Source of the DNA: Escherichia phage tiwna
DNA: 51,014 nucleotides
Sequence record: NC_054896.1
Direction: 5' to 3' (one strand)
Both the position numbers and the translations under genes were made by a program. This document shows, one piece after another, positions 12,369 to 48,714 of this stretch. Every line of letters begins with the position of its first letter. The first letter of the stretch is position 1. The notes beneath the pieces are model-generated. The model made no database searches. It was not told the origin of the DNA and was given only the letters and a program-made list of their open reading frames with translations.

Positions 12369-12374
12369 TCATCT

Positions 12375-21980: not shown

Positions 21981-22004
21981 ACCCGCCTTGCGCGGGTTTT
22001 TTTG
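21981..22004 (+). terminator. rho-independent terminator
   Basis: Hairpin acccgccttgcgcgggt followed by T7. Confidence 0.7.
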
Positions 22005-22052
22005 TGCCTTTATAATGTGCAAACCAAGAAACAGCACAAAAGGTTAAAAGTC

Positions 22053-25000
22053 ATGGCTAAATATATGATAAGCGGCAGTAAGGGAGGCGGTCAAAAGCCC
22101 TACGTGCCAAAAGAGATGGAAGATAACCTGATCTCGATAAACAAGATTAAAGTTTTGCTGGCTGTATCTGATGGCGAGTGCGATCCAGATTTTACGTTGC
22201 GTGATCTTTATCTTGATGATGTTCCGGTTATTGCCAGCGATGGCACTGTTAACTACGAGGGAGTTACGGCTGAATATCGACCAGGTACGCAGACGCAAGA
22301 TTACATCCAGGGTTTTACTGACACATCAAGTGAGGTTACAGTTGCCAGAGATATTACCGGAGACAATCCTTATGTTATTTCTGTTACAAATAAAAACCTA
22401 TCTGCGGTAAGAATAAAGATCCTGATGCCAGTAGGCATTAAAACAGAGGATAATGGCGATCTTGTTGGCGTAAGGGTTGAGTATGCCGTAGATATGGCTG
22501 TTGATGGCGGTTCTTATAGCGAGGTTATGAGAGATGTAATTGACGGCAAGACAAGATCAGGATACGACCGCAGCAGAAGGATTGATCTTCCTAAGTTTGA
22601 TGAGCGCGTTTTAATCAGGGTTAAGCGACTTACTCCAGACAGCACATCTTCAAAGGTGACTGATAAAATCAAACTGCAAAGTTACGCTGAGGTTGTGGAT
22701 GCAAAATTCCGTTATCCTCTGACTGGCCTTGTATTTGTAGAATTTGACAGCGAATTGTTTCCTACACAAATCCCTAACATTTCTATAAAAAAGAAATGGA
22801 AGATTATTAATGTGCCAAGCAACTATGATCCAATATCAAGAGAATATCACGGGTCATGGGATGGGACTTTTAAGAAAGCGTGGTCAAATAATCCTGCATG
22901 GGTTCTTTATGATCTGGTGACGAATCAGCGTTATGGGCTTGACCAGCGAGAGTTAGGGATACAGATCGACAAGTGGAGCTTATACGAGGCAGGCGTTTAC
23001 TGTGATCAGAAAGTTCCAGACGGTAAGGGCGGTACAGAGCCTCGCTACCTATGCGATGTGGTGATTCAGAATCAAGTTGAGGCTTATCAGCTAATCCGTG
23101 ACATTTGCTCAATCTTTCGCGGAATGAGCTTTTGGAATGGTGAGAGCTTATCAATCGTGATTGATAAGCCGCGCGATCCATCATACGTGTTTACTAATGA
23201 AAACGTCATCAACGGTGATTTTCAGTACACAACCGCAAGCGAAAAAAGCATGTACACGCAATGTAATGTGACGTTTGACGACGAACAAAACATGTATCAA
23301 CAGGACGTCGAGGGGGTTTTTGATACTGAGGCGGCATTACGATTTGGATACAATCCAACAAGCATTACAGCGATCGGGTGTACACGCAGGAGCGAAGCGA
23401 ATCGTCGAGGTCGGTGGGTTTTGAAAACAAACCTTAGAAGCACTACTGTAAACTTTGCTACTGGACTGGAGGGGATGATTCCATCCATAGGTGATGTGAT
23501 TGCTATCGCTGATAATTTTCAGAGCAGCAATCTAACGTTAAATCTTTCGGGCCGAGTAATGGAAGTTTCAGGCTTGCAAGTTTTCGTTCCGTTTAAAGTT
23601 GATGCGCGTCCTGGTGATTTTATTATCATCAATAAGCCGGACGGCAAGCCAGTTAAGCGAACGATCTCAAAGGTGAGCGCGGACGGAAAAACCATTGAGT
23701 TAAATATTGGCTTTGGTTTTGATGTTAAGCCAGACACTGTTTTTGCGATTGACCGTACTGACCTTGCGTTGCAGCAATACGTTGTGACCACTATCAGCAA
23801 GGGAGATGACGAAAACGAGTTTACCTATTCAATCACGGCTGTGGAGTACGATCCGAACAAATACGACGAGATTGATTATGGCGTAAACATTGATGACAGG
23901 CCTACTTCAATTGTTCAGCCTGACGTGATGGCAGCGCCGGAGAATGTTCAGATCTCATCTTATTCTCGCGTCGTGCAGGGTGTTAGCGTTGAAACTATGG
24001 TTGTTTCATGGGATAAGATTCCTTACGCATCGCTTTATGAAATGCAGTGGCGAAAAGGTGATGGTAACTGGCTGAATACGCCGCAGACCGCTAACAAAGA
24101 GATAGAGGTAGAAGGAATTTATTCAGGCAACTACCAAGTAAGGGTGAGATCCGTTTCTGCAAGCGGTAACACTTCCCCGTGGTCAAAGATTGCAACAGCT
24201 ACCCTGACAGGTAAAGTTGGCGAGCCAGGAGCGCCGATTAATCTTACAGCTTCTGATAATGAAGTTTTTGGCATTCGTGTCAAATGGGGCATGCCGGAAG
24301 GATCTGGCGATACGGCTTACATTGAGCTTCACCAATCGCCAGATGGAACGGTGGAAAACTCAAGTTTGCTTACGCTGATTCCATATCCTCAATATGAGTA
24401 TTGGCATAGCACGTTACCAGCGGGTAAAGTTGTATGGTATAGAATCCGTAGCGTTGACAGGATCGGCAACGTTTCAGGCTGGACTGACTTTGTTCGTGGC
24501 ATGGCGTCAGATGATGTTGAATCTGTTTTAGGCGACATTCTTGACAAGATTTTTGATACCGAAGCTGGTCAAGAAATCAAAGAGAACGCCATAGACAGTG
24601 CCAACAAAATCAAAGACCAGGCGCAATCAATCATCCAGAACGCATTGGCAAATGATTCTGATGTTAGAGTTATGAGAAAGGAGAATGGGAAACGGAAAGC
24701 TGAATTTAGGCAATCTATACAGATGATTACTGATGAAACAGAGGCAAGGGTAACAGCGTTAACGCAATTAAAAGCAGAATTTGATGAGGAGATAACTAGC
24801 GAAGTAACAAGACTTGATCAGGCGATCGCAACAGAATCAGAAACGCGAGCAACAGCTATAGAGGAATTAAAATCACAGATTGGTGATGATATTCAGGGGC
24901 AGTTAACGAGAGTTGAGGAAGCGATTGCAAGCGAAACAGAAGCGCGCGTTTCTGCCGATACTGCATTAACGGCAAAGTTTGGTGATCTTGAGTCAGCACT

Positions 25001-25478
25001 TACTGAAAAACTTGATTCATGGGCTGGCGTTGATTCCGTTGGTGCTCAATATTCAATGAAGCTGGGCCTAACCTATAACGGTCAGCAGTACAGCGCCGGA
25101 ATGGTTATGCAGTTAACGCAATCACCGCAAGGATTAATATCACAGATTCTGTTTGACGCTAACAGATTCGCGATCATGACAAGTTCTAGCGGCGGGGTAT
25201 ATACGCTTCCTTTCGTGGTTGAGAATAACCAGGTTTTCATCAATAGCTTACTTGTGAAAGATGGTTCAATAACTAATGCTATGATTGGAAACTTTATTCA
25301 GTCAAACAATTTTGTTCAAAATCAGCAAGGTTGGAGGCTTGATAAAAACGGAATATTTGAAAACTACGGGTCAACTCCAGGAGAGGGAGCTACTAAATTC
25401 ACCAACGAAGGATTGAAGGTAAAAGATGCAAACGGAGTATTGAGGGTTGAAGTCGGAAGGATTACCGGAAGCTGGTAA
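22053..25478 (+). CDS. tail tip / host specificity protein (lambda J-like)
   Basis: About 1141 aa, position after K/I-like genes, coiled-coil segment near the C-terminus; true ATG at 22053 lies after the terminator, so the track start at 22002 is rejected. Confidence 0.75.
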   Translation: MAKYMISGSKGGGQKPYVPKEMEDNLISINKIKVLLAVSDGECDPDFTLRDLYLDDVPVIASDGTVNYEGVTAEYRPGTQTQDYIQGFTDTSSEVTVARDITGDNPYVISVTNKNLSAVRIKILMPVGIKTEDNGDLVGVRVEYAVDMAVDGGSYSEVMRDVIDGKTRSGYDRSRRIDLPKFDERVLIRVKRLTPDSTSSKVTDKIKLQSYAEVVDAKFRYPLTGLVFVEFDSELFPTQIPNISIKKKWKIINVPSNYDPISREYHGSWDGTFKKAWSNNPAWVLYDLVTNQRYGLDQRELGIQIDKWSLYEAGVYCDQKVPDGKGGTEPRYLCDVVIQNQVEAYQLIRDICSIFRGMSFWNGESLSIVIDKPRDPSYVFTNENVINGDFQYTTASEKSMYTQCNVTFDDEQNMYQQDVEGVFDTEAALRFGYNPTSITAIGCTRRSEANRRGRWVLKTNLRSTTVNFATGLEGMIPSIGDVIAIADNFQSSNLTLNLSGRVMEVSGLQVFVPFKVDARPGDFIIINKPDGKPVKRTISKVSADGKTIELNIGFGFDVKPDTVFAIDRTDLALQQYVVTTISKGDDENEFTYSITAVEYDPNKYDEIDYGVNIDDRPTSIVQPDVMAAPENVQISSYSRVVQGVSVETMVVSWDKIPYASLYEMQWRKGDGNWLNTPQTANKEIEVEGIYSGNYQVRVRSVSASGNTSPWSKIATATLTGKVGEPGAPINLTASDNEVFGIRVKWGMPEGSGDTAYIELHQSPDGTVENSSLLTLIPYPQYEYWHSTLPAGKVVWYRIRSVDRIGNVSGWTDFVRGMASDDVESVLGDILDKIFDTEAGQEIKENAIDSANKIKDQAQSIIQNALANDSDVRVMRKENGKRKAEFRQSIQMITDETEARVTALTQLKAEFDEEITSEVTRLDQAIATESETRATAIEELKSQIGDDIQGQLTRVEEAIASETEARVSADTALTAKFGDLESALTEKLDSWAGVDSVGAQYSMKLGLTYNGQQYSAGMVMQLTQSPQGLISQILFDANRFAIMTSSSGGVYTLPFVVENNQVFINSLLVKDGSITNAMIGNFIQSNNFVQNQQGWRLDKNGIFENYGSTPGEGATKFTNEGLKVKDANGVLRVEVGRITGSW

Positions 25479-25508
25479 AAAAAAGGGGGCATAGCCCCCT
25501 TTAATTTT
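25476..25508. terminator. bidirectional terminator between J (+) and the leftward cassette (-)
   Basis: Hairpin agggggcatagccccct flanked by an A-run and a T-rich stretch. Confidence 0.6.
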
Positions 25509-26121
25509 AATCATAGTGTGATGCATTTATAACCAAAACAGATGAGGCGGTGTAAATACCAACAGGTCCAGGGGTTTGTGCAACCTGCCTGGAAAAAGAG
25601 TAGATCCCGTTACCATACGCGGCAGCTTGAGACTCAAAAATCATAAATCCACCTAAAGCCGGATTAGGTACAGAGTTTAACGCTGTTAGTGATGGCATTA
25701 TTGCGCAAGGGTAGCCCAGGTTAACATCAAACGCGATCCCGCTCACACCAACTTGCTTTGCATCAAGCGGCCTCATTTTTCCATGATAAACCATTTCACC
25801 ATGAGCGTTATAAAACGCTATGCCGTGACTACCTGGAGGAGTCACCATGTTACTAAAAGCATAAACAATAACCTCCCCTTGATTATCAGATCTATCAATT
25901 CTTATTGCGTGCCTTCCACCATTGTTAAATTGCGTAAATGATATGTATGATTTAGCAGTCAATCTAACAAAGAAAAAACATACCCTATCAACAGGAATTG
26001 ACGAAGTAAAAACGGTTCCGGTATTAGCAGATATTACGGCCCGATCAATTAGATTAACTGGAGTGAAATCTGGACTTAACCATAACGATCCGTCTGATTT
26101 TTTTATACTCATCCCGTACAT
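25507..26121 (-). CDS. hypothetical Gly-rich protein (204 aa)
   Basis: GGGGG RBS before ATG 26121; shares a short motif (G.A.Y...G.E.V) with the upstream 92-aa gene. Confidence 0.5.
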   Translation of the reverse strand: MYGMSIKKSDGSLWLSPDFTPVNLIDRAVISANTGTVFTSSIPVDRVCFFFVRLTAKSYISFTQFNNGGRHAIRIDRSDNQGEVIVYAFSNMVTPPGSHGIAFYNAHGEMVYHGKMRPLDAKQVGVSGIAFDVNLGYPCAIMPSLTALNSVPNPALGGFMIFESQAAAYGNGIYSFSRQVAQTPGPVGIYTASSVLVINASHYD

Positions 26122-26123
26122 TA

Positions 26124-26402
26124 TCACCCCCAAAAAGTATATATATATCTTGAATCAGATCCAGAAAGCCCACTCCATGTAACGGTGTCGCCACTTACCC
26201 CTAAGTTTGGTGCTCCAGGGTCGCCACCACGCCAGGAATTCATGCCAACATATATTGCTTTCAATGATTTACCTGGCGGCCTGTTTTGGTAAGTCTTGCT
26301 ACCTGATGGCTGAGTGAATTTATCAAGGAAGAAAACAGGCGTTAAAAGTCCTGTAACTTCCCTTCCTCGATCGTCATATATTGCATAACCATATTGCGCC
26401 AT
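26124..26402 (-). CDS. hypothetical protein (92 aa)
   Basis: GAGGTG RBS; TAATG overlap with the lipoprotein gene. Confidence 0.5.
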   Translation of the reverse strand: MAQYGYAIYDDRGREVTGLLTPVFFLDKFTQPSGSKTYQNRPPGKSLKAIYVGMNSWRGGDPGAPNLGVSGDTVTWSGLSGSDSRYIYTFWG

Positions 26403-26671
26403 TAATTACACCTCAAATCAATAAATTTACTTTCATTTTGCCAACGGTTGATAAATTTAACTTCTTTATTGTCAACGCTCAACCTGTATTGCTTTTGGCT
26501 GAATCTGTTTTCGCGTACTGCATTAATTTTAACTTCATGGAATCCGTTAACAGGGAATGTTTTAACGTTAAATTTTGCCGTGCAGTCGATCTCATTGAAG
26601 TTGCCAGTAGGAGACGCTGCGCACCCGGTCAGAGCGGCTACGGTGGCGATAACTGCGATTATTTTTTTCAT
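26402..26671 (-). CDS. small lipoprotein, candidate Cor-like superinfection-exclusion protein
   Basis: Signal peptide with lipobox LTGC (MKKIIAVIATVAALTGC); AGGAG RBS; located downstream of the tail tip genes. Confidence 0.5.
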   Translation of the reverse strand: MKKIIAVIATVAALTGCAASPTGNFNEIDCTAKFNVKTFPVNGFHEVKINAVRENRFSQKQYRLSVDNKEVKFINRWQNESKFIDLRCN

Positions 26672-26744: not shown

Positions 26745-26854
26745 CTTGTTATTTTTTGTTTTTCGGTGTTATCGAATTTAAGACGGCGTAAATTTAGCGC
26801 AAATTTTAGCCAACATAAGGGCAATAAACAATCAATAAAATAGATATATACATA

Positions 26855-32970: not shown

Positions 32971-33447
32971 TTAGCTATTCGTGCTGTTATCACCTTTGTA
33001 GAATCTTCCGCCTGGTTCGTAGTCTGAATTTTTGACTACGCGCAACATTTCGTATTTGTCGCAACGGGTAGTAAGAGGCTTGCCGTTAGAATCAAACCGC
33101 AGATCTGGACGACAAAACGAGGCGCGGTATCCTTTGCATCCATTATATTTGTAGTCGTTATGCACCTTTTGTGCTCCAGCGGCTGAAATCATACCACGCT
33201 TTCGCCACTGGTTAACGACTTGCTGAGATACGCGCAGACGTCGAGCCATAGCAGGAACACCGCCGTAATACTCGATCAGAATGTCAAGGCGAGATTTTAG
33301 GCTTGCTTTTACCTCATCTCGCAGGATAAGAAATCCGGTTCGGTGTTTTCGTGGCTTTTTGTCTTTACCTCGTCGCGTTCCGTTGTTACCGTTAATAGTG
33401 CGCTTGTCGATCTCACCCGTAGACACTGCAATTCGTGCATCTTTCAT
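32971..33447 (-). CDS. putative DNA-binding protein (HTH)
   Basis: Candidate HTH segment AMARRLRVSQQVVNQWRKRG; basic N-terminus; divergent from the helicase gene. Confidence 0.45.
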   Translation of the reverse strand: MKDARIAVSTGEIDKRTINGNNGTRRGKDKKPRKHRTGFLILRDEVKASLKSRLDILIEYYGGVPAMARRLRVSQQVVNQWRKRGMISAAGAQKVHNDYKYNGCKGYRASFCRPDLRFDSNGKPLTTRCDKYEMLRVVKNSDYEPGGRFYKGDNSTNS

Positions 33448-33459
33448 CTAGTCACCTCA

Positions 33460-39077: not shown

Positions 39078-39568
39078 TGAGCATAAAGAACAGGGTAGCG
39101 GCTGCGGCCTTTGGCGTTGCGGTTGCCTTGACTTCTCCACTTCTTGAAGAGATCGAAGGGGTAAGATACAAGCCATACAAAGATATTGCGGGGGTATGGA
39201 CGGTTTGCGCAGGAATCACCGGACCCGATGTTATCCTGGGGAAAACGTACACTAAAAAAGAGTGTGATGCTTTGTTGGCTAAGCATATCCAGGTTGCTAA
39301 AAAGGAAGTTGACAAGCAAGTTAAGGTTGACATTCCTGATAGTATGCGTGCAGCAATGTACTCATTCACTTACAATGCAGGTGTGGGAGCTTTCAGAAAT
39401 TCAACAATGCTGAAACTCATCAATCAGGGGAAATTAAAAGATGCTTGCGATCAGCTTTATCGTTGGACGTATTACCATAACCCCAAAACAGGAAAGCGCG
39501 AGAAGTCTAAAGGCTTACTTAACAGGCGCAAGGTCGAACACAAATATTGCACAATGGATCTGAAATGA
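39077..39568 (+). CDS. SAR endolysin (lysozyme, E-x8-D-x5-T type)
   Basis: N-terminal weakly hydrophobic [12 protein letters not shown] signal-anchor-release-like segment followed by a catalytic E..D..T spacing ([16 protein letters not shown]). Confidence 0.7.
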
Positions 39569-39960
39569 TGAAGAAATTTTTACTTACACCAATCGCAATG
39601 GCGGTGATCTTGTCTGGATGTTCAAGCGTTACGCCACTGACCGGATTAATCGGCAGTAAGCCGGAAATCACAGCACAGGCTGGCGCGGAGAACGTGAAGC
39701 AGACAGTTGGCATTACAGAAAAGCATGACGCCAGCACAAAACAGAAAACCACAATAAAGGAATCTGCGGTTGACAAGGTTGACACGTCCAGCAAGAAGGA
39801 TTTCACAACATCAACCATTCAGGCCAATACCATCAAGGCAGACAAAATTCAGGTCGTGCAGGGTAATAACGGCAGATGGTACGATCCAATAATCATATGC
39901 GTGGTTGTGTTAATTGTGCTGATTTGTCTTTACTGGAGAGAAAAGAAAAAGGAGGCTTAA
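39565..39960 (+). CDS. unimolecular spanin (lipoprotein with C-terminal TMD)
   Basis: Lipobox ILSGC at the N-terminus and C-terminal [18 protein letters not shown], as in the T1-type u-spanin; the track start is TTG, real ATG at 39565. Confidence 0.6.
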
Positions 39961-44761: not shown

Positions 44762-45042
44762 TATGCGATCCCAGTTACGTTAAAACTTACAGCCTTTGTT
44801 GCGCTAAATACATAAGCATCAACAGCGCCGCCAAATACACGAATTTTACCCTGGCCGTACTGCGCATTCATATTTCGCCAAACCGTTCTATTAGAGCAGA
44901 ATGCGCTACCAGTCTTAATAAGCGTATCCATCTCTTTTCTTAGATCGCGATAGTCAAGCCAGAATCTAAAGGCACGCTGTTTAATTCGCGCCGCCTTGAT
45001 TTTTTCTCTTGCGCTATTGAAATCATTCTTTTCGTATGCCAT
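44761..45042 (-). CDS. hypothetical protein (93 aa)
   Basis: ATG overlaps the upstream stop. Confidence 0.45.
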   Translation of the reverse strand: MAYEKNDFNSAREKIKAARIKQRAFRFWLDYRDLRKEMDTLIKTGSAFCSNRTVWRNMNAQYGQGKIRVFGGAVDAYVFSATKAVSFNVTGIA

Positions 45043-45239
45043 TAAATGATCTCCATGTATGTTTCAAAGCCATTTAACTTGAACAGGCCGTTTTCACATT
45101 TGCGCACGTTCCAAGTTAGCCCTGAGTGGTACGCCTCCATATCATCAAGGTCAATGGTGATTTCAGCGCCTTTCTTAAACAAACCTTTTTCGTGAGACTT
45201 GTCGCGCTTAACAACTTTAACATCAACCTGATTTTCCAT
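45042..45239 (-). CDS. hypothetical protein (65 aa)
   Basis: GAGGA RBS before the internal ATG (MENQ...) of track ORF 45042..45290. Confidence 0.45.
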   Translation of the reverse strand: MENQVDVKVVKRDKSHEKGLFKKGAEITIDLDDMEAYHSGLTWNVRKCENGLFKLNGFETYMEII

Positions 45240-45295
45240 CTTTAAATCCTCGCTTGTTTTCGATGGGTGTAATATACCATTCAGGCGCACATCGT

Positions 45296-46774: not shown

Positions 46775-47046
46775 TACTTCTTGATCTCCTCACTGATAAA
46801 TTTCAGCACCTGACGTAAGAAAACCTCGTTGTTGATAGTCGCTGGCAATTCTTCTTTCACTTCTTGCGGCAGATAGATATTGCCGTGCCAGGTCAAGCAA
46901 TCGTAGTTGATACGATAAGAGCAAAGCCACTCGCAATCGTTATCTGCTTCCCAAATGCAGAGTTGCAGAACATCGCCAAAATCCTCAACAGTCAGATCCA
47001 GACCGTGACGCTTAGCGAAGTTGAAAGTGGTTTTGCTGATGTTCAT
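46774..47046 (-). CDS. hypothetical protein (90 aa); first gene of the leftward early cluster
   Basis: GGAG RBS; directly downstream of the promoter box at 47106. Confidence 0.5.
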   Translation of the reverse strand: MNISKTTFNFAKRHGLDLTVEDFGDVLQLCIWEADNDCEWLCSYRINYDCLTWHGNIYLPQEVKEELPATINNEVFLRQVLKFISEEIKK

Positions 47047-47105
47047 TGCTATCTCCTGAGCGGTTCGTTTTGATGTGTGTAATGTACCCGATCAGGTGGC
47101 CTGAG

Positions 47106-47124
47106 TTTTAACAAAAAGTGCTAT
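47106..47124 (-). promoter_or_regulatory. conserved box, minus orientation, with -10 at 47081-47086
   Basis: TAGCACTTTTTGTTAAAA then 19 bp then TACATT. Confidence 0.5.
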
Positions 47125-47394
47125 TTGACGGTTAGCGCCAGGATTGTGATCGAAATAATCAAAAGTAATCATTCGTAATCAAATCACGTCAAAATGATGA
47201 TTGCCTTTGCAAATTTGATGAGAAAAGCAATCACGTTTAATCATTGGTTGCAGGGGAGATAGTGAAACCTTCCCCTCTCGCCTCAATTTTCCGCCTGGCT
47301 GTCAGTGGTTGTTATGTTCCGTTCCCGCCTGTTCTTTTGTTGACCTTCCGCAAAATACGATAACAAAAAATAACAAACAATACCTATATAATAC

Positions 47395-47660
47395 ATTGAA
47401 AAATAAGGATTATTTATTTATATGTATCTATATATTCTCTTTTGTTATCTTGGTTATTGTGGTATTTGGTGGGGTATATAGTTTTTGTGTATCTGTATGT
47501 GTGTATGGGTATGTAGGGGCATATATATCTATATGGCACTTTCCGCGAGAAAACTTCGATAACAGGCAATGATAACATTGATTTATAAGGAAAAATAACG
47601 CCTATATTGTTATTGTGCCACCATGTAAAATTGATAAAACACGCGGGAACAAGAAAAAAC
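47395..47660. repeat. GT-rich strand-biased noncoding region B, homologous to 26855-27060
   Basis: Shared blocks ttatttatttat, ttgttatct, gtatctgtatgtg and gggaacaagaaaaa; G-runs ggtgggg and gtagggg. Confidence 0.5.
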
Positions 47661-47662
47661 AG

Positions 47663-47691
47663 TTGACACATTAAATAGCATTATTGATAAT
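47663..47691 (+). promoter_or_regulatory. near-consensus sigma70 promoter (TTGACA-17-GATAAT)
   Basis: -35 at 47663-47668 and -10 at 47686-47691, about 28 nt before the AGGAGG RBS of gene 47720. Confidence 0.6.
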
Positions 47692-47719
47692 GCCCACACC
47701 TAACAACCAGGAGGCAGAA

Positions 47720-48184
47720 ATGAGCGAGCAATCATTCACTGACACGCTGCGCCGTGCCGCTATTATGCTGGCTAATGGCGAGGAAGAGACGATCAAGATT
47801 CCTGACGCGTATTTGCAGGTCCACATGTTCGGCAAGAAGTCGGCAAGCAATCCGGCGGCCTACATTCGCCAGATCATGAGTCGAGTGCCAGAAGTCGCCG
47901 AGCGGGGGCGCGTATCCGTTACCCGTGGCGTTTACGGGCCGGAAGATGAAAACTTCGGTAGCACTTTCTACGAGGTGCGGATTGTTGAAGGCCGTCGCAA
48001 GGTTTACAACAAAGAGGCACTGGAAAGGGCAGTACGCCAGGCTAAGCGCAAGGTTGCAGAGGCGATCATTGATATGTCACCCAACCTGGCAAACTATGCG
48101 CCGGAAGAGTACGAAACATTATCAAAGGCCGTCGCTGACTTTCACGCGATGATCAAAAAAACTTTCCTGGAGGATGAGCAATGA
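47720..48184 (+). CDS. hypothetical protein (154 aa), likely immediate-early
   Basis: Consensus promoter plus AGGAGG RBS; internal ATG of track ORF 47684. Confidence 0.55.
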   Translation: MSEQSFTDTLRRAAIMLANGEEETIKIPDAYLQVHMFGKKSASNPAAYIRQIMSRVPEVAERGRVSVTRGVYGPEDENFGSTFYEVRIVEGRRKVYNKEALERAVRQAKRKVAEAIIDMSPNLANYAPEEYETLSKAVADFHAMIKKTFLEDEQ

Positions 48185-48441
48185 AAAAGGCATTAATCGG
48201 CGTTTTGGTGGCAATGGCATTCCTGACCGGATGCGAAAAGGCATCAGAATCAACGGTTGTCGTAGGCGTGGAGTCAGATTTCAAAGTCGGCCGCCTGTTC
48301 ACTGTTGACGGATGCACAGCATACAGATTCTATGATAACGGTCGCGCGATCTATTACACCAATTGCAAGGGCGCAACGGATAGCACGTACAACAGCGGAA
48401 AGAACGTAATGCACCAGCAAGTCACAACAGATATTAAATAG
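48181..48441 (+). CDS. small lipoprotein (86 aa)
   Basis: Signal peptide with lipobox LTGC (MKKALIGVLVAMAFLTGC); ATGA coupling. Confidence 0.5.
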   Translation: MKKALIGVLVAMAFLTGCEKASESTVVVGVESDFKVGRLFTVDGCTAYRFYDNGRAIYYTNCKGATDSTYNSGKNVMHQQVTTDIK

Positions 48442-48456
48442 CACTTTTTGTTAAAA
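48439..48456 (+). promoter_or_regulatory. conserved box with -10 CATAAT at 48476-48481
   Basis: TAGCACTTTTTGTTAAAA, hairpin gccaggcgcaaagcctggc, then CATAAT. Confidence 0.5.
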
Positions 48457-48513
48457 CGCCAGGCGCAAAGCCTGGCATAATAGCCTCATCGAAACGAGAT
48501 TGAGGAAACAAAA

Positions 48514-48699
48514 ATGGCACGTCGCATCACCAAAGACCTTAAAGTTCTTAACAAAGAAAACGTAGTTAAAATCCTGGTTATCTGGGGCTACAACGAAGAA
48601 ACAGCAAAGCAGAAGGTAGAGGCAGGTTATGACCTGGCTGTAAAAGCAATGCCAAACGACGACGCCAAAGGCATTGCAAACTATGTAGCTTTCTTTTAA
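48514..48699 (+). CDS. hypothetical protein (61 aa)
   Basis: RBS gagga before ATG. Confidence 0.45.
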   Translation: MARRITKDLKVLNKENVVKILVIWGYNEETAKQKVEAGYDLAVKAMPNDDAKGIANYVAFF

Positions 48700-48714
48700 T
48701 TAGCAGGTGAATAA

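What the first reader, a model, noticed from the sequence alone, without database searches (positions are those of the whole stretch)
47720..48441. Immediate-early pair: strongly expressed 154-aa protein plus a second lipobox lipoprotein
Gene 47720 has the best sigma70 promoter and RBS in the window and no recognisable motif. It is translationally coupled to an 86-aa lipoprotein (lipobox LTGC). A second small lipoprotein expressed from the very first transcript could be a receptor-blocking exclusion factor, and the 154-aa protein could be a host-takeover or anti-defence factor.
Basis: inference. Interest (0 to 1): 0.55.

Follow-up and report, generated by a model that had tools for sequence, protein, structure and literature searches.

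The report
First early genes of T1-like phage
The interval holds two real but uncharacterised early genes of a T1-like coliphage: a conserved 'first gene' of unknown function and an exchangeable outer-membrane lipoprotein that is not the phage's usual receptor blocker. It is mostly ordinary, with a few testable leads.

Summary
The window is a complete T1-like phage genome (Drexlerviridae, Warwickvirus type; 98.7% identical to vB_Eco_Sip). Both ORFs are real genes under purifying selection. They overlap by ATGA and follow a canonical sigma-70 promoter and an AGGAGG ribosome-binding site. The superlatives fail: the promoter ties with two others, and six other gene starts carry AGGAGG.

The 154-aa protein belongs to Pfam DUF7174. 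It is the first gene right of a 673-bp AT-rich control region throughout Drexlerviridae. Its predicted N-domain has winged-helix-like topology, but structural matches are weak. It is inherited as one cassette with the right half of the control region.

The 86-aa protein is a lipoprotein of a widespread phage family related to DUF4884, with a predicted six-stranded beta domain. It is the third lipobox protein here, after a Cor-type cassette and a u-spanin. It has no similarity to Cor-type lipoproteins. Its alleles are uncoupled from the receptor-binding module, so it is unlikely to block the phage's own receptor.

The two genes are independent mosaic modules. In many relatives a non-lipoprotein follows gene 1. 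Both functions remain inferred: a nucleic-acid-binding early regulator and a receptor-independent envelope or exclusion factor. Interest is modest.

The parts
47310..47662 (.). Right half of the 673-bp divergent control region (47047-47719). It has an AT-rich core (about 30% GC) and clustered GATAACA/TGTTATC motifs, and it is inherited together with gene 1.
   Evidence: Composition is and repeats. GATAACA occurs 18 times in the window against 6.4 expected, four of them in this region. Identity to JLBYU26 drops at about 47310. The same 14 phage records hold copies at 95% identity or more of both this stretch and gene 1.
47652..47691 (+). Sigma-70 promoter: A-tract (UP-like) 47652-47661, -35 TTGACA 47663-47668, 17-nt spacer, -10 GATAAT 47686-47691.
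   Evidence: An equivalent promoter and A-tract are kept at the same distance from the start codon in most diverged alleles. No experimental start site is known.
47709..47714 (+). Shine-Dalgarno AGGAGG, 5 nt before the ATG of gene 1.
   Evidence: It is one of seven AGGAGG-led gene starts in the window.
47720..48184 (+). Gene 1, 154 aa, Pfam DUF7174 / phrog_4841. The model gives a confident winged-helix-like alpha/beta N-domain (residues 1-90) and a lower-confidence C-terminal helical hairpin.
   Evidence: dN/dS is 0.03-0.19.
48169..48173 (+). Shine-Dalgarno GGAGG of gene 2, inside the 3' end of gene 1, 7 nt before the ATG.
   Evidence: read directly from the sequence.
48181..48441 (+). Gene 2, an 86-aa prolipoprotein. 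The signal peptide is 48181-48231, with lipobox LTGC and the Cys18 codon at 48232-48234. The mature 69-aa domain is all-beta, with invariant Cys45 and Cys62. It belongs to a DUF4884-related family (phrog_6360).
48437..48481 (+). Downstream boundary of the two-gene unit: the 21-nt box AATAGCACTTTTTGTTAAAAC (48437-48457), a GC hairpin (48458-48476) and the -10-like CATAAT (48476-48481). It looks like the promoter of the next unit. No U-tract terminator follows gene 2.

Best explanation
The interval is the first rightward early transcription unit of a virulent T1-like phage.

Shown:
- A canonical sigma-70 promoter with an A-tract and strong ribosome-binding sites drives two overlapping genes.
- The unit is bounded downstream by the next phage 'box' promoter-like element.
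- Gene 1 (DUF7174) is the positionally conserved first gene of Drexlerviridae.
- Gene 1 is a roughly 150-aa protein with no signal peptide. Its only invariant residues are L, R, G, R, G and P, so it has no catalytic-type residues.
- Its model has a confident alpha/beta N-domain of winged-helix topology and a helical C-terminal hairpin.
- It is inherited as one cassette with the right half of the AT-rich, repeat-bearing control region.

Inferred for gene 1: it is a non-enzymatic, probably dimeric nucleic-acid-binding early protein. It would act on its own linked control region (early-promoter control, origin or packaging-site function) rather than on a host defence.

Shown by sequence for gene 2: a Sec-type signal peptide with a lipobox, Glu at position +2, and a six-stranded beta domain with an invariant Cys pair.

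Inferred for gene 2: it is lipidated at Cys18, sorted to the outer membrane, and carries a periplasmic disulfide. It is an exchangeable accessory cassette of a widespread phage lipoprotein family. It most likely alters the envelope early, giving superinfection exclusion or protection at a step that does not depend on the phage's own terminal receptor, such as DNA injection or other phages' receptors.

The two genes are neighbours, not obligate partners.
For: Identity of the phage.

Promoter, SD and overlap. The promoter position is conserved across most alleles.

Gene 1:
- Family and distribution.
- It is first in Rtp (hmmsearch E 1.4e-18), and there is a weak match to the first gene of T1 (E 2.5e-4).
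- The T1 record marks bases 1-2800 as its terminal repeat, which contains that gene.
- Model: pLDDT is about 90 for residues 1-90, with topology H-S-H-H-S-S.
- Invariant R11, R55 and near-invariant Y48, R50 lie in or beside the putative recognition helix.
- Cassette linkage: the same 14 records match both the control region and gene 1. Breakpoints fall at about 47310 and 48180.
- Selection is purifying within alleles.
- Repeat motifs differ between allele groups: TAACA, GAACA or AAACA types.

Gene 2:
- Lipobox and invariant Cys residues.
- 291 homologous clusters, mostly on phage-sized contigs.
- All-beta model with mean pLDDT 82.
- Homologues in other phages (Pseudomonas phage Jeremy, Serratia phage MTx) sit among small hypothetical genes, not beside annotated tail or lysis genes.
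- Alleles are uncoupled from the Cor/receptor-binding cassette.
- No profile similarity to Cor-type lipoproteins.
Against: Gene 1:
- No HTH or winged-helix sequence family matches.
- The family is not basic: median pI is 6.7, and the window N-domain is 5.8. The 'wing' loop is acidic and variable in length.
- Linkage with the adjacent control region could reflect adjacency alone.
- The motif-allele covariation rests on few lineages and is not phylogenetically controlled.
- A separate Cro/YdaS-like HTH protein exists and could bind the repeats instead.
- Two GenBank relatives carry frameshifts in gene 1. If real, they suggest it is dispensable.

Gene 2:
- No experiment, structural match or homologue of known function supports any specific envelope role.
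- Lipidation, localisation and the disulfide are predictions.
Confidence: 0.35

Rival explanations
1. Gene 1 is a host-takeover or anti-defence protein. It would be made first and abundantly, and would bind and neutralise a host protein such as a restriction or defence component, RNA polymerase or a nuclease.
For: It is the first gene behind a strong host-type promoter.

Its alleles are highly diverse: 33 clusters at 50% identity, and 216 of 233 phage records are below 60% identical.

Alleles are exchanged as a mosaic.

A neighbouring small early protein in a relative, Gp54 of Bas11, is a trigger of the CapRel defence and a suspected counter-defence factor (PMC11578894).

Frameshifted copies in two records hint that it may be dispensable.
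Against: It is present at the same position across the whole family, on hosts from Escherichia to Klebsiella and Cronobacter. Accessory counter-defence genes are usually patchy.

Selection is strongly purifying within alleles, with no sign of diversifying selection.

It is not an acidic DNA mimic (pI 6.2).

It matches no characterised protein by sequence or structure.

The BASEL paper found no genomic feature that tracks restriction resistance in this family (PMC8594841).
Confidence: 0.3
2. Gene 2 is a receptor-blocking exclusion lipoprotein after all, but directed at a receptor other than the phage's own. It would keep unrelated phages out (heterotypic exclusion).
For: It is a small outer-membrane-type lipoprotein behind an early host-type promoter. 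The known precedents Cor and Llp are small phage lipoproteins that bind FhuA (PMC13164509).

The family is spread across unrelated phage groups, as expected for a generally useful exclusion gene.
Against: The mature domain shows no sequence or profile similarity to Cor-type proteins, and there is no structural match in the PDB.

The mature domain is highly conserved across hosts as distant as Pseudomonas, Serratia and Escherichia. That fits poorly with binding a variable surface loop of one receptor.
Confidence: 0.2
3. Gene 1 is the activator that recognises the 21-nt box found in front of most other transcription units, giving a T4 MotA-like early-to-middle switch.
For: Gene 1 lies behind a canonical sigma-70 promoter. 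In contrast, 16-19 other sites carry the box at about -51 to -31 with no -35 at normal spacing. The N-domain has winged-helix-like topology.
Against: The box is almost invariant across the family, including T1 and Rtp. Gene 1 diverges to 25-30% identity and is barely recognisable in T1.

A conserved Cro/YdaS-like HTH protein at 32971-33447 (-), annotated 'transcriptional regulator' in phage Kalemo, is a better candidate.
Confidence: 0.07
4. Gene 2 acts in lysis or progeny protection. It might modulate the spanin or envelope, or prevent released virions from adsorbing to debris, rather than exclude incoming phages.
For: It is a predicted periplasm-facing outer-membrane lipoprotein. Progeny protection has been proposed for Llp and Cor (PMC13164509).
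Against: It lies about 8 kb from the lysis cassette at 38.8-40 kb and behind an early-type promoter. It is absent from many relatives that have the same lysis genes.
Confidence: 0.08

Closest known systems
Pfam DUF7174 (PF23796) / phrog_4841, including Rtp1 of phage Rtp and weakly the first gene (ST77) of phage T1
   Same: Full-length match well above the curated cutoff. It has the same length and the same position as the first gene right of the control region and genome terminus.
   Different: The family has no known function. The window allele is rare: 14 of 233 phage records are at 95% identity or more.
Pfam DUF4884 (PF16225) / phrog_6360 small lipoproteins
   Same: It shares the core motif LFTVDGCT.YRF.D....Y.TNC.G. 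All 56 family members tested hit DUF4884 (best E 1.7e-8), and sources name relatives 'DUF4884 domain-containing protein'.
   Different: The window protein scores 24.7 bits, below the 30-bit cutoff. This is a phage branch carrying an N-terminal lipobox. No function is known.
Cor (T1, phi80, N15) and Llp (T5) receptor-blocking exclusion lipoproteins
   Same: It is a small phage-encoded lipoprotein with a lipobox and conserved cysteines, and is probably made early.
   Different: The mature domain has no homology to Cor-type proteins (hhalign probability 0.13%). The PHROG Cor model does not hit the window protein and hits only 11 of 56 family members weakly (best E 1.3e-4). The gene is not next to the receptor-binding locus, and its alleles do not track the receptor-binding alleles. 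The window has its own Cor-type cassette at 25507-26671.
Winged-helix DNA-binding proteins (such as CtsR, and the plasmid initiators RepE and Pi)
   Same: The predicted topology is helix-strand-helix-helix-strand-strand, with conserved Arg/Tyr on the third helix. The gene is adjacent and linked to a repeat-bearing AT-rich region, as for iteron-binding initiators.
First early genes of other virulent coliphages (T7 gene 0.3 Ocr; T5 pre-early A1/A2) — recalled from general knowledge, not tested here
   Same: The gene lies at the genome end behind strong host-type promoters.
   Different: There is no sequence or structural similarity. It is not an acidic DNA mimic (pI 6.2).

Membership tests
Pfam DUF7174 (PF23796) | Whole-protein HMM score above the gathering cutoff (27 bits), with a full-length match | tested here: met
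   99.2 bits, residues 1-150 against profile positions 2-150 of 153. All 31 aligned relatives match.
Pfam DUF4884 (PF16225) | Whole-protein HMM score above the gathering cutoff (30 bits) | tested here: not met
   24.7 bits, E 2e-5, residues 32-60 only. All 56 relatives do hit the model at E 0.1 or better (best 1.7e-8). It is best filed as a related phage branch, not a curated member.
Bacterial lipoprotein (Lgt/LspA substrate) | Positively charged n-region, hydrophobic h-region, and lipobox [LVI][ASTVI][GAS]C within about 15-25 residues of the start | tested here: met
   The sequence is MKKALIGVLVAMAFLTGC. Cys18 is invariant in 56 homologues.
Bacterial lipoprotein (Lgt/LspA substrate) | Actual lipidation, signal peptidase II cleavage and outer-membrane sorting | not testable with these tools
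   Needs globomycin sensitivity, palmitate labelling and fractionation. Outer-membrane sorting is inferred from Glu, not Asp, at position +2.
Cor/Llp-type receptor-blocking exclusion lipoproteins | Homology of the mature domain to Cor or Llp | tested here: not met
   hhalign of mature gene 2 family against mature Cor-type proteins gave probability 0.13%. The Cor PHROG model does not hit the window protein. The Cor NCBIfam model hits 26402-26671 weakly, below its cutoff (19.4 against 31 bits), and does not hit gene 2.
Cor/Llp-type receptor-blocking exclusion lipoproteins | Encoded beside the receptor-binding locus downstream of the J-like tail-tip gene and co-varying with it | tested here: not met
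   Gene 2 lies about 22 kb from the J-like tail-tip gene (22002-25478). Lipoprotein alleles at 93-97% identity occur with three different receptor-binding cassettes, and one Cor allele occurs with two lipoprotein types.
Cor/Llp-type receptor-blocking exclusion lipoproteins | Exclusion phenotype and physical binding to an outer-membrane receptor | not testable with these tools
   Requires plating and adsorption assays with cloned gene 2.
Winged-helix DNA-binding domain | Alpha1-beta1-alpha2-alpha3-beta2-wing-beta3 topology | tested here: met
   AlphaFold2 model: H3-19, E25-28, H29-36, H45-54, E63-71, E82-90, with pLDDT about 90. This is a prediction only.
Winged-helix DNA-binding domain | Significant structural or sequence match to known winged-helix proteins, and a basic DNA-binding surface | tested here: inconclusive
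Sigma-70 promoter | -35 and -10 hexamers with 16-18 nt spacing, correctly placed upstream of the gene | tested here: met
   11 of 12 matches with a 17-nt spacer, 28 nt before the ATG. The position is conserved in most relatives examined. The transcription start has not been measured.
Ocr/ArdA-type DNA-mimic anti-restriction proteins | Strongly acidic protein (pI about 4) mimicking DNA | tested here: not met
   pI is 6.19 for the window protein, and the family ranges from 5.2 to 9.1.
Known defence-system proteins (PADLOC-DB) | HMM match | tested here: not met
   No family at E up to 1 for either protein. Anti-defence libraries were not available.

The most novel reading that the evidence does not exclude
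DUF7174 and the co-inherited right half of the AT-rich control region may form an allele-specific protein/DNA-site cassette in strictly virulent T1-like phages. It would set early-promoter, origin or packaging specificity, somewhat like the immunity or replicon modules of temperate phages and plasmids. The neighbouring DUF4884-type lipoprotein may be a receptor-independent exclusion factor acting at DNA entry.
Probability: 0.15. Interest if true: 0.6.

Novelty: new member of a known kind. Interest (0 to 1): 0.33.

Why it matters
About half of the genes of T1-like phages have no known function (PMC13164509), and these phages are common laboratory and fermentation contaminants.

Gene 1 is the one early gene kept at the same place throughout the family. 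Knowing what it does would say how these phages start their programme.

The lipoprotein family occurs in phages of several Gram-negative genera. It could be a new kind of exclusion or envelope factor.

As it stands, both are catalogued hypothetical proteins and nothing here overturns current views. The practical gain is a set of cheap, well-defined experiments in the BASEL phage PeterMerian, whose gene 1 protein is identical to the window's.

Tried and rejected
Searches that found nothing useful:
- PADLOC gave no hits.
- PDB sequence and profile searches gave no hits for either protein.
- Rfam found nothing in 46900-48700.
- NCBIfam gave only signal-peptide noise.
- The BFVD fold search for gene 1 found only uncharacterised Drexlerviridae homologues.
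- The AlphaFold-database library was unavailable.
- The search for related loci with the full alignment failed. Two sub-alignments then gave 16 loci.
- Literature: no paper mentions DUF7174, and DUF4884 appears only in annotation tables. No Drexlerviridae infection transcriptome was found. The Rtp genome paper is not held. No held paper contains the 21-nt box. One search was wasted on the ambiguous term 'rtp1'.

Ideas rejected:
- Gene 1 as activator of the 21-nt box. The box is invariant while gene 1 is hypervariable.
- The lipoprotein as a Cor homologue. The mature domains show no profile similarity.
- Gene 1 disrupted in phage JK16. It is a partial tandem duplication with an intact copy.
- A gene 1 homologue in a '78-kb phage'. 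N5822 is classified as Drexlerviridae and the record looks like a misassembly.
- The upstream TTG start at 47684. It lies inside the -10 region and is not supported by the N-termini of homologues.

Full report
**What the window is.** The 51,014-bp window is a complete, circularly permuted genome of a T1-like virulent siphovirus. The region around the finding is 98.7% identical to Escherichia phage vB_Eco_Sip and 98.4% to phage atuna. Annotated close relatives are classified Drexlerviridae, Tempevirinae, Warwickvirus. The gene order is typical:
- small early genes run rightwards from 47720 through the window end to about 5500;
- then come terminase, head and tail genes, and the J-like tail-tip gene (22002-25478);
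- then a three-gene Cor-type cassette on the minus strand (25507-26671);
- then recombination, replication and lysis genes;
- a leftward arm of small genes ends at 47046.

The finding lies immediately right of the 673-bp divergent intergenic region, 47047-47719.

**Checking the observation.**
- The promoter is TTGACA-17-GATAAT at 47663-47691, with an A-tract just upstream.
- AGGAGG lies 5 nt before the ATG of gene 1. Gene 2 has its own GGAGG 7 nt before its ATG.
- A whole-window scan shows that the promoter's 11 of 12 hexamer matches is shared with two other sites, 29163 (+) and 32065 (-), both inside coding sequence.
- Seven gene starts carry AGGAGG, and some have longer matches. The signals are strong but not uniquely best.
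- A strong sigma-70 promoter with an upstream A-tract lies about 28-32 nt before the start codon in most relatives, even where the protein is only about 30% identical and the surrounding DNA is unalignable.
- Within allele groups dN/dS is 0.03-0.19 for gene 1 and 0.09-0.29 for gene 2. Both are therefore real genes under purifying selection.
- A lipobox scan finds three lipoproteins, not two: the Cor-type protein at 26402-26671 (-), the u-spanin at 39568-39960 (+) and gene 2.

**Gene 1 (154 aa).**
- *Family.* It matches Pfam DUF7174 over its full length (99.2 bits against a cutoff of 27) and phrog_4841. Both are of unknown function.
- *Size and spread.* The family is small and phage-restricted. 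An exhaustive search of 1.84 billion cluster representatives found 33. tblastn found it in 233 phage records on Escherichia, Klebsiella, Salmonella, Citrobacter, Cronobacter and Enterobacter hosts. Of those, 216 are below 60% identical and only 14 are at 95% or more.
- *Position.* In every context examined it is the first gene right of the large intergenic region. That includes Rtp1, the first gene of phage Rtp (E 1.4e-18), and weakly ST77, the first gene of T1 (E 2.5e-4). The T1 record starts 538 bp upstream of that gene and marks bases 1-2800 as its terminal repeat. The gene therefore sits at the packaged genome's end.
- *Conserved residues.* Invariant residues are L10, R11, G20, R55, G63 and P121. 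F6, Y48, R50 and I145 are nearly invariant. None is a catalytic-type residue, which argues for a binding protein rather than an enzyme.
- *Structure.* AlphaFold2 gives a confident N-domain (residues 1-90, pLDDT about 90) with helix-strand-helix-helix-strand-strand topology. Two long C-terminal helices have lower confidence, pLDDT 55-69.
- *Charge.* The family is not basic (median pI 6.7).
- *Conclusion.* The winged-helix reading is a lead, not a membership.

**Linkage of gene 1 to the control region.**
- Identity to phage JLBYU26 is 96-100% up to about 47310. It falls to 26-80% from there to about 48180, and returns to 92-100% from the start of gene 2.
- Exactly the same 14 phage records carry copies at 95% identity or more of both 47310-47719 and gene 1. 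The next tier, at about 70% identity, largely coincides.
- The region has an AT-rich core (about 30% GC), a GC-skew turn and clustered GATAACA/TGTTATC motifs. GATAACA occurs 18 times in the window against 6.4 expected, four of them here.
- Relatives keep the architecture but use different repeat variants (TAACA, GAACA or AAACA types), which roughly follow the gene 1 allele group.
- This fits a protein that acts on its own adjacent DNA. Adjacency alone could also produce the linkage, and the covariation is not phylogenetically controlled.

**Gene 2 (86 aa).**
- *Signal peptide.* It has a textbook lipoprotein signal peptide (MKKALIGVLVAMAFLTGC) with Glu at position +2.
- *Family.* Its 69-aa mature domain carries the motif LFTVDGCT.YRF.D....Y.TNC.G, which is related to Pfam DUF4884. 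The window protein scores 24.7 bits, below the 30-bit cutoff, but all 56 aligned relatives hit the model.
- *Spread.* A profile search found 291 clusters of 80-95-aa proteins, mostly on phage-sized contigs. They include Pseudomonas phages Jeremy and Dolphis. tblastn also found relatives in Serratia phage MTx and an Erwinia phage. In Jeremy and MTx the gene lies among small hypothetical genes, not beside annotated tail or lysis genes.
- *Conserved residues.* C18, C45 and C62 are invariant.

**Is gene 2 a receptor blocker?** Three tests argue against its being the cognate blocker of this phage's own receptor.
1. The window already has a Cor-type cassette beside the tail-tip gene (phrog_1119, phrog_425). 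A recent paper links this arrangement to FhuA-using T1-like phages (PMC13164509).
2. Profile-profile comparison of mature domains shows no relation between the gene 2 family and Cor-type lipoproteins (probability 0.13%). The PHROG Cor model does not hit the window protein and hits only 11 of 56 family members weakly.
3. Alleles are uncoupled.
   - The window's Cor allele (96% identity or more) occurs with the window-type lipoprotein in atuna, Sip, FritzSarasin and Kalemo.
   - The same Cor allele occurs with a type that is about 48% identical in SECphi27, tonn, tunus and JK16.
   - The window-type lipoprotein (93-97% identity) also occurs in PeterMerian and JakobBernoulli, which have a different receptor-binding cassette, and in KarlJaspers, whose Cor is 53% identical.

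Exclusion of other phages, or a block at a receptor-independent step, remains possible but untested.

**Are the two genes a pair?** They are not a functional unit.
- JLBYU10 has a 99% identical gene 1 but a 52% identical lipoprotein. The breakpoint lies just after the shared signal peptide, at about 48235.
- JLBYU26 has a 28% identical gene 1 but a 97.7% identical lipoprotein.
- Across 24 loci the gene after gene 1 is a DUF4884-type lipoprotein in six. At least 12 others carry acidic 78-86-aa proteins or unrelated small proteins.
- Tight spacing (-3 to +4 nt) to the next gene holds at most of these loci. It reflects operon compaction rather than partnership.

**Timing.**
- A 21-nt box, AATAGCACTTTTTGTTAAAAC, occurs 16 times at three mismatches or fewer (0.01 expected), and 19 times at four or fewer.
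- In 17 of the 19 copies it points the same way as the local genes; the copies at 12370 and 16120 are antisense to the structural genes.
- In most copies it is followed after about 18 nt by a -10-like hexamer, then an RBS and a start codon.
- One copy begins at the stop codon of gene 2 (48437). Another heads the leftward arm (47125-47105), and another precedes the Cor gene (26746).
- The box is kept almost unchanged in T1 and, as a variant, in Rtp.
- It lies at about -51 to -31, so these promoter-like sites lack a -35 at normal spacing.
- The gene 1 promoter is the clear exception. That is consistent with expression by unmodified host polymerase as soon as the DNA enters. No transcript data are available.
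- Because the box is invariant while gene 1 is hypervariable, gene 1 is unlikely to be its binding factor. A Cro/YdaS-like HTH protein at 32971-33447 (-) is the better candidate.

Gene 1 is a catalogued but uncharacterised family-wide first gene. My best guess is a nucleic-acid-binding early regulator tied to its own control region. A host-directed takeover role is nearly as likely.

Gene 2 is an exchangeable phage lipoprotein of unknown role. It is not a Cor-type protein and is not tied to this phage's receptor.

The case is ordinary in kind and modest in interest. It offers cheap, decisive experiments in BASEL phage PeterMerian.

Noticed in passing
window (+) 531, 902, 3506, 7724, 31896, 33458, 35947, 37018, 48437, 50114; (-) 12370, 16120, 26746, 40280, 42442, 43116, 45315, 45821, 47125: A 21-nt box, AATAGCACTTTTTGTTAAAAC, occurs 16 times at three mismatches or fewer (0.01 expected) and 19 times at four or fewer. 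In 17 of the 19 copies it points the same way as the local genes; the copies at 12370 and 16120 are antisense to the structural genes. In most copies it is followed after about 18 nt by a -10-like hexamer, an RBS and an ATG. The spacer often forms a GC hairpin whose stem sequence differs between copies, sometimes enclosing the -10. The box is conserved in T1 and, as a variant, in Rtp. It looks like a family-wide phage-specific promoter class lacking a normal -35. No held paper contains it.
   Followed up: partly
window 47047-47719: This 673-bp divergent control region has a left part with repeated AATCA/TGATGATTG motifs, conserved across relatives. A central conserved AT-rich core (ATTATTTATTTATATGTATCTATA) is followed by a G/T-rich stretch. 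There is also a direct duplication about 190 bp apart (47352-47421 and 47551-47613) and a GC-skew turn. The T1 and Rtp records start in this region, so it may hold the packaging site and/or an origin. Several relatives (JK16, BEK12A, BEK26, PeterMerian) carry a second partial copy.
   Followed up: partly
window 25507-26671 (-): A three-gene cassette lies downstream of the J-like tail-tip gene: a 208-aa 'membrane associated protein' (phrog_425), a 91-aa protein and an 89-aa Cor-type lipoprotein (phrog_1119). The Cor gene is preceded by a box-type promoter at 26746. PeterMerian and JakobBernoulli have a different cassette at this position, with an unrelated 75-aa lipoprotein.
   Followed up: partly
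window 45042-45290 (-): This ORF encodes a homologue (53% identity, E 1e-20) of Gp54 of phage Bas11. That small beta-barrel protein directly activates the CapRel(SJ46) defence system (PMC11578894). Whether this allele is a trigger is unknown.
   Followed up: no
window 32971-33447 (-): This 158-aa protein has a weak Cro/YdaS-like HTH match, below the Pfam cutoffs. Its counterpart in phage Kalemo is annotated 'transcriptional regulator'. It sits at a second divergent junction with its own sigma-70-like promoter (33526-33498) and a box at 33458. It is a candidate binder of the 21-nt box.
   Followed up: partly
L003 1973-2221, L004 923-1171, L005 1929-2189, L016 and L018 (relatives): In Hanrivervirus, Tlsvirus and Henuseptimavirus relatives the slot after gene 1 holds a strongly acidic 66-86-aa protein (for example MENFDLEALMATID...) instead of the lipoprotein. 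It could be a DNA-mimic-type factor, but this was not examined.
   Followed up: no
L032 476-945 (pSf-1) and L020 1601-2075 (2019SD1): Two GenBank relatives carry frameshifts in gene 1. pSf-1 has a 1-nt deletion. 2019SD1 has a 1-nt deletion plus a later 2-nt deletion that restores the frame. The surrounding sequence is otherwise well conserved. These are either sequencing errors or evidence that the gene is dispensable in culture.
   Followed up: partly
L031 470-676 (JK16): Phage JK16 carries a partial tandem duplication: a 68-aa N-terminal fragment of gene 1, followed 380 bp later by an intact copy of the gene.
   Followed up: partly
phage records MG0656xx: About 20 records labelled 'Campylobacter phage' (47-50 kb, host C. 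jejuni) carry these T1-like coliphage genes at up to 92% protein identity. This suggests mislabelled or contaminant coliphages.
   Followed up: no
window 47673-47681: The spacer of the gene 1 promoter contains AAATAGCAT, an 8-of-9 match to the start of the 21-nt box. If the box-binding factor also binds here, it would sit between -35 and -10 and could shut the promoter off later. The motif is seen in Warwickvirus-type relatives only.
   Followed up: no
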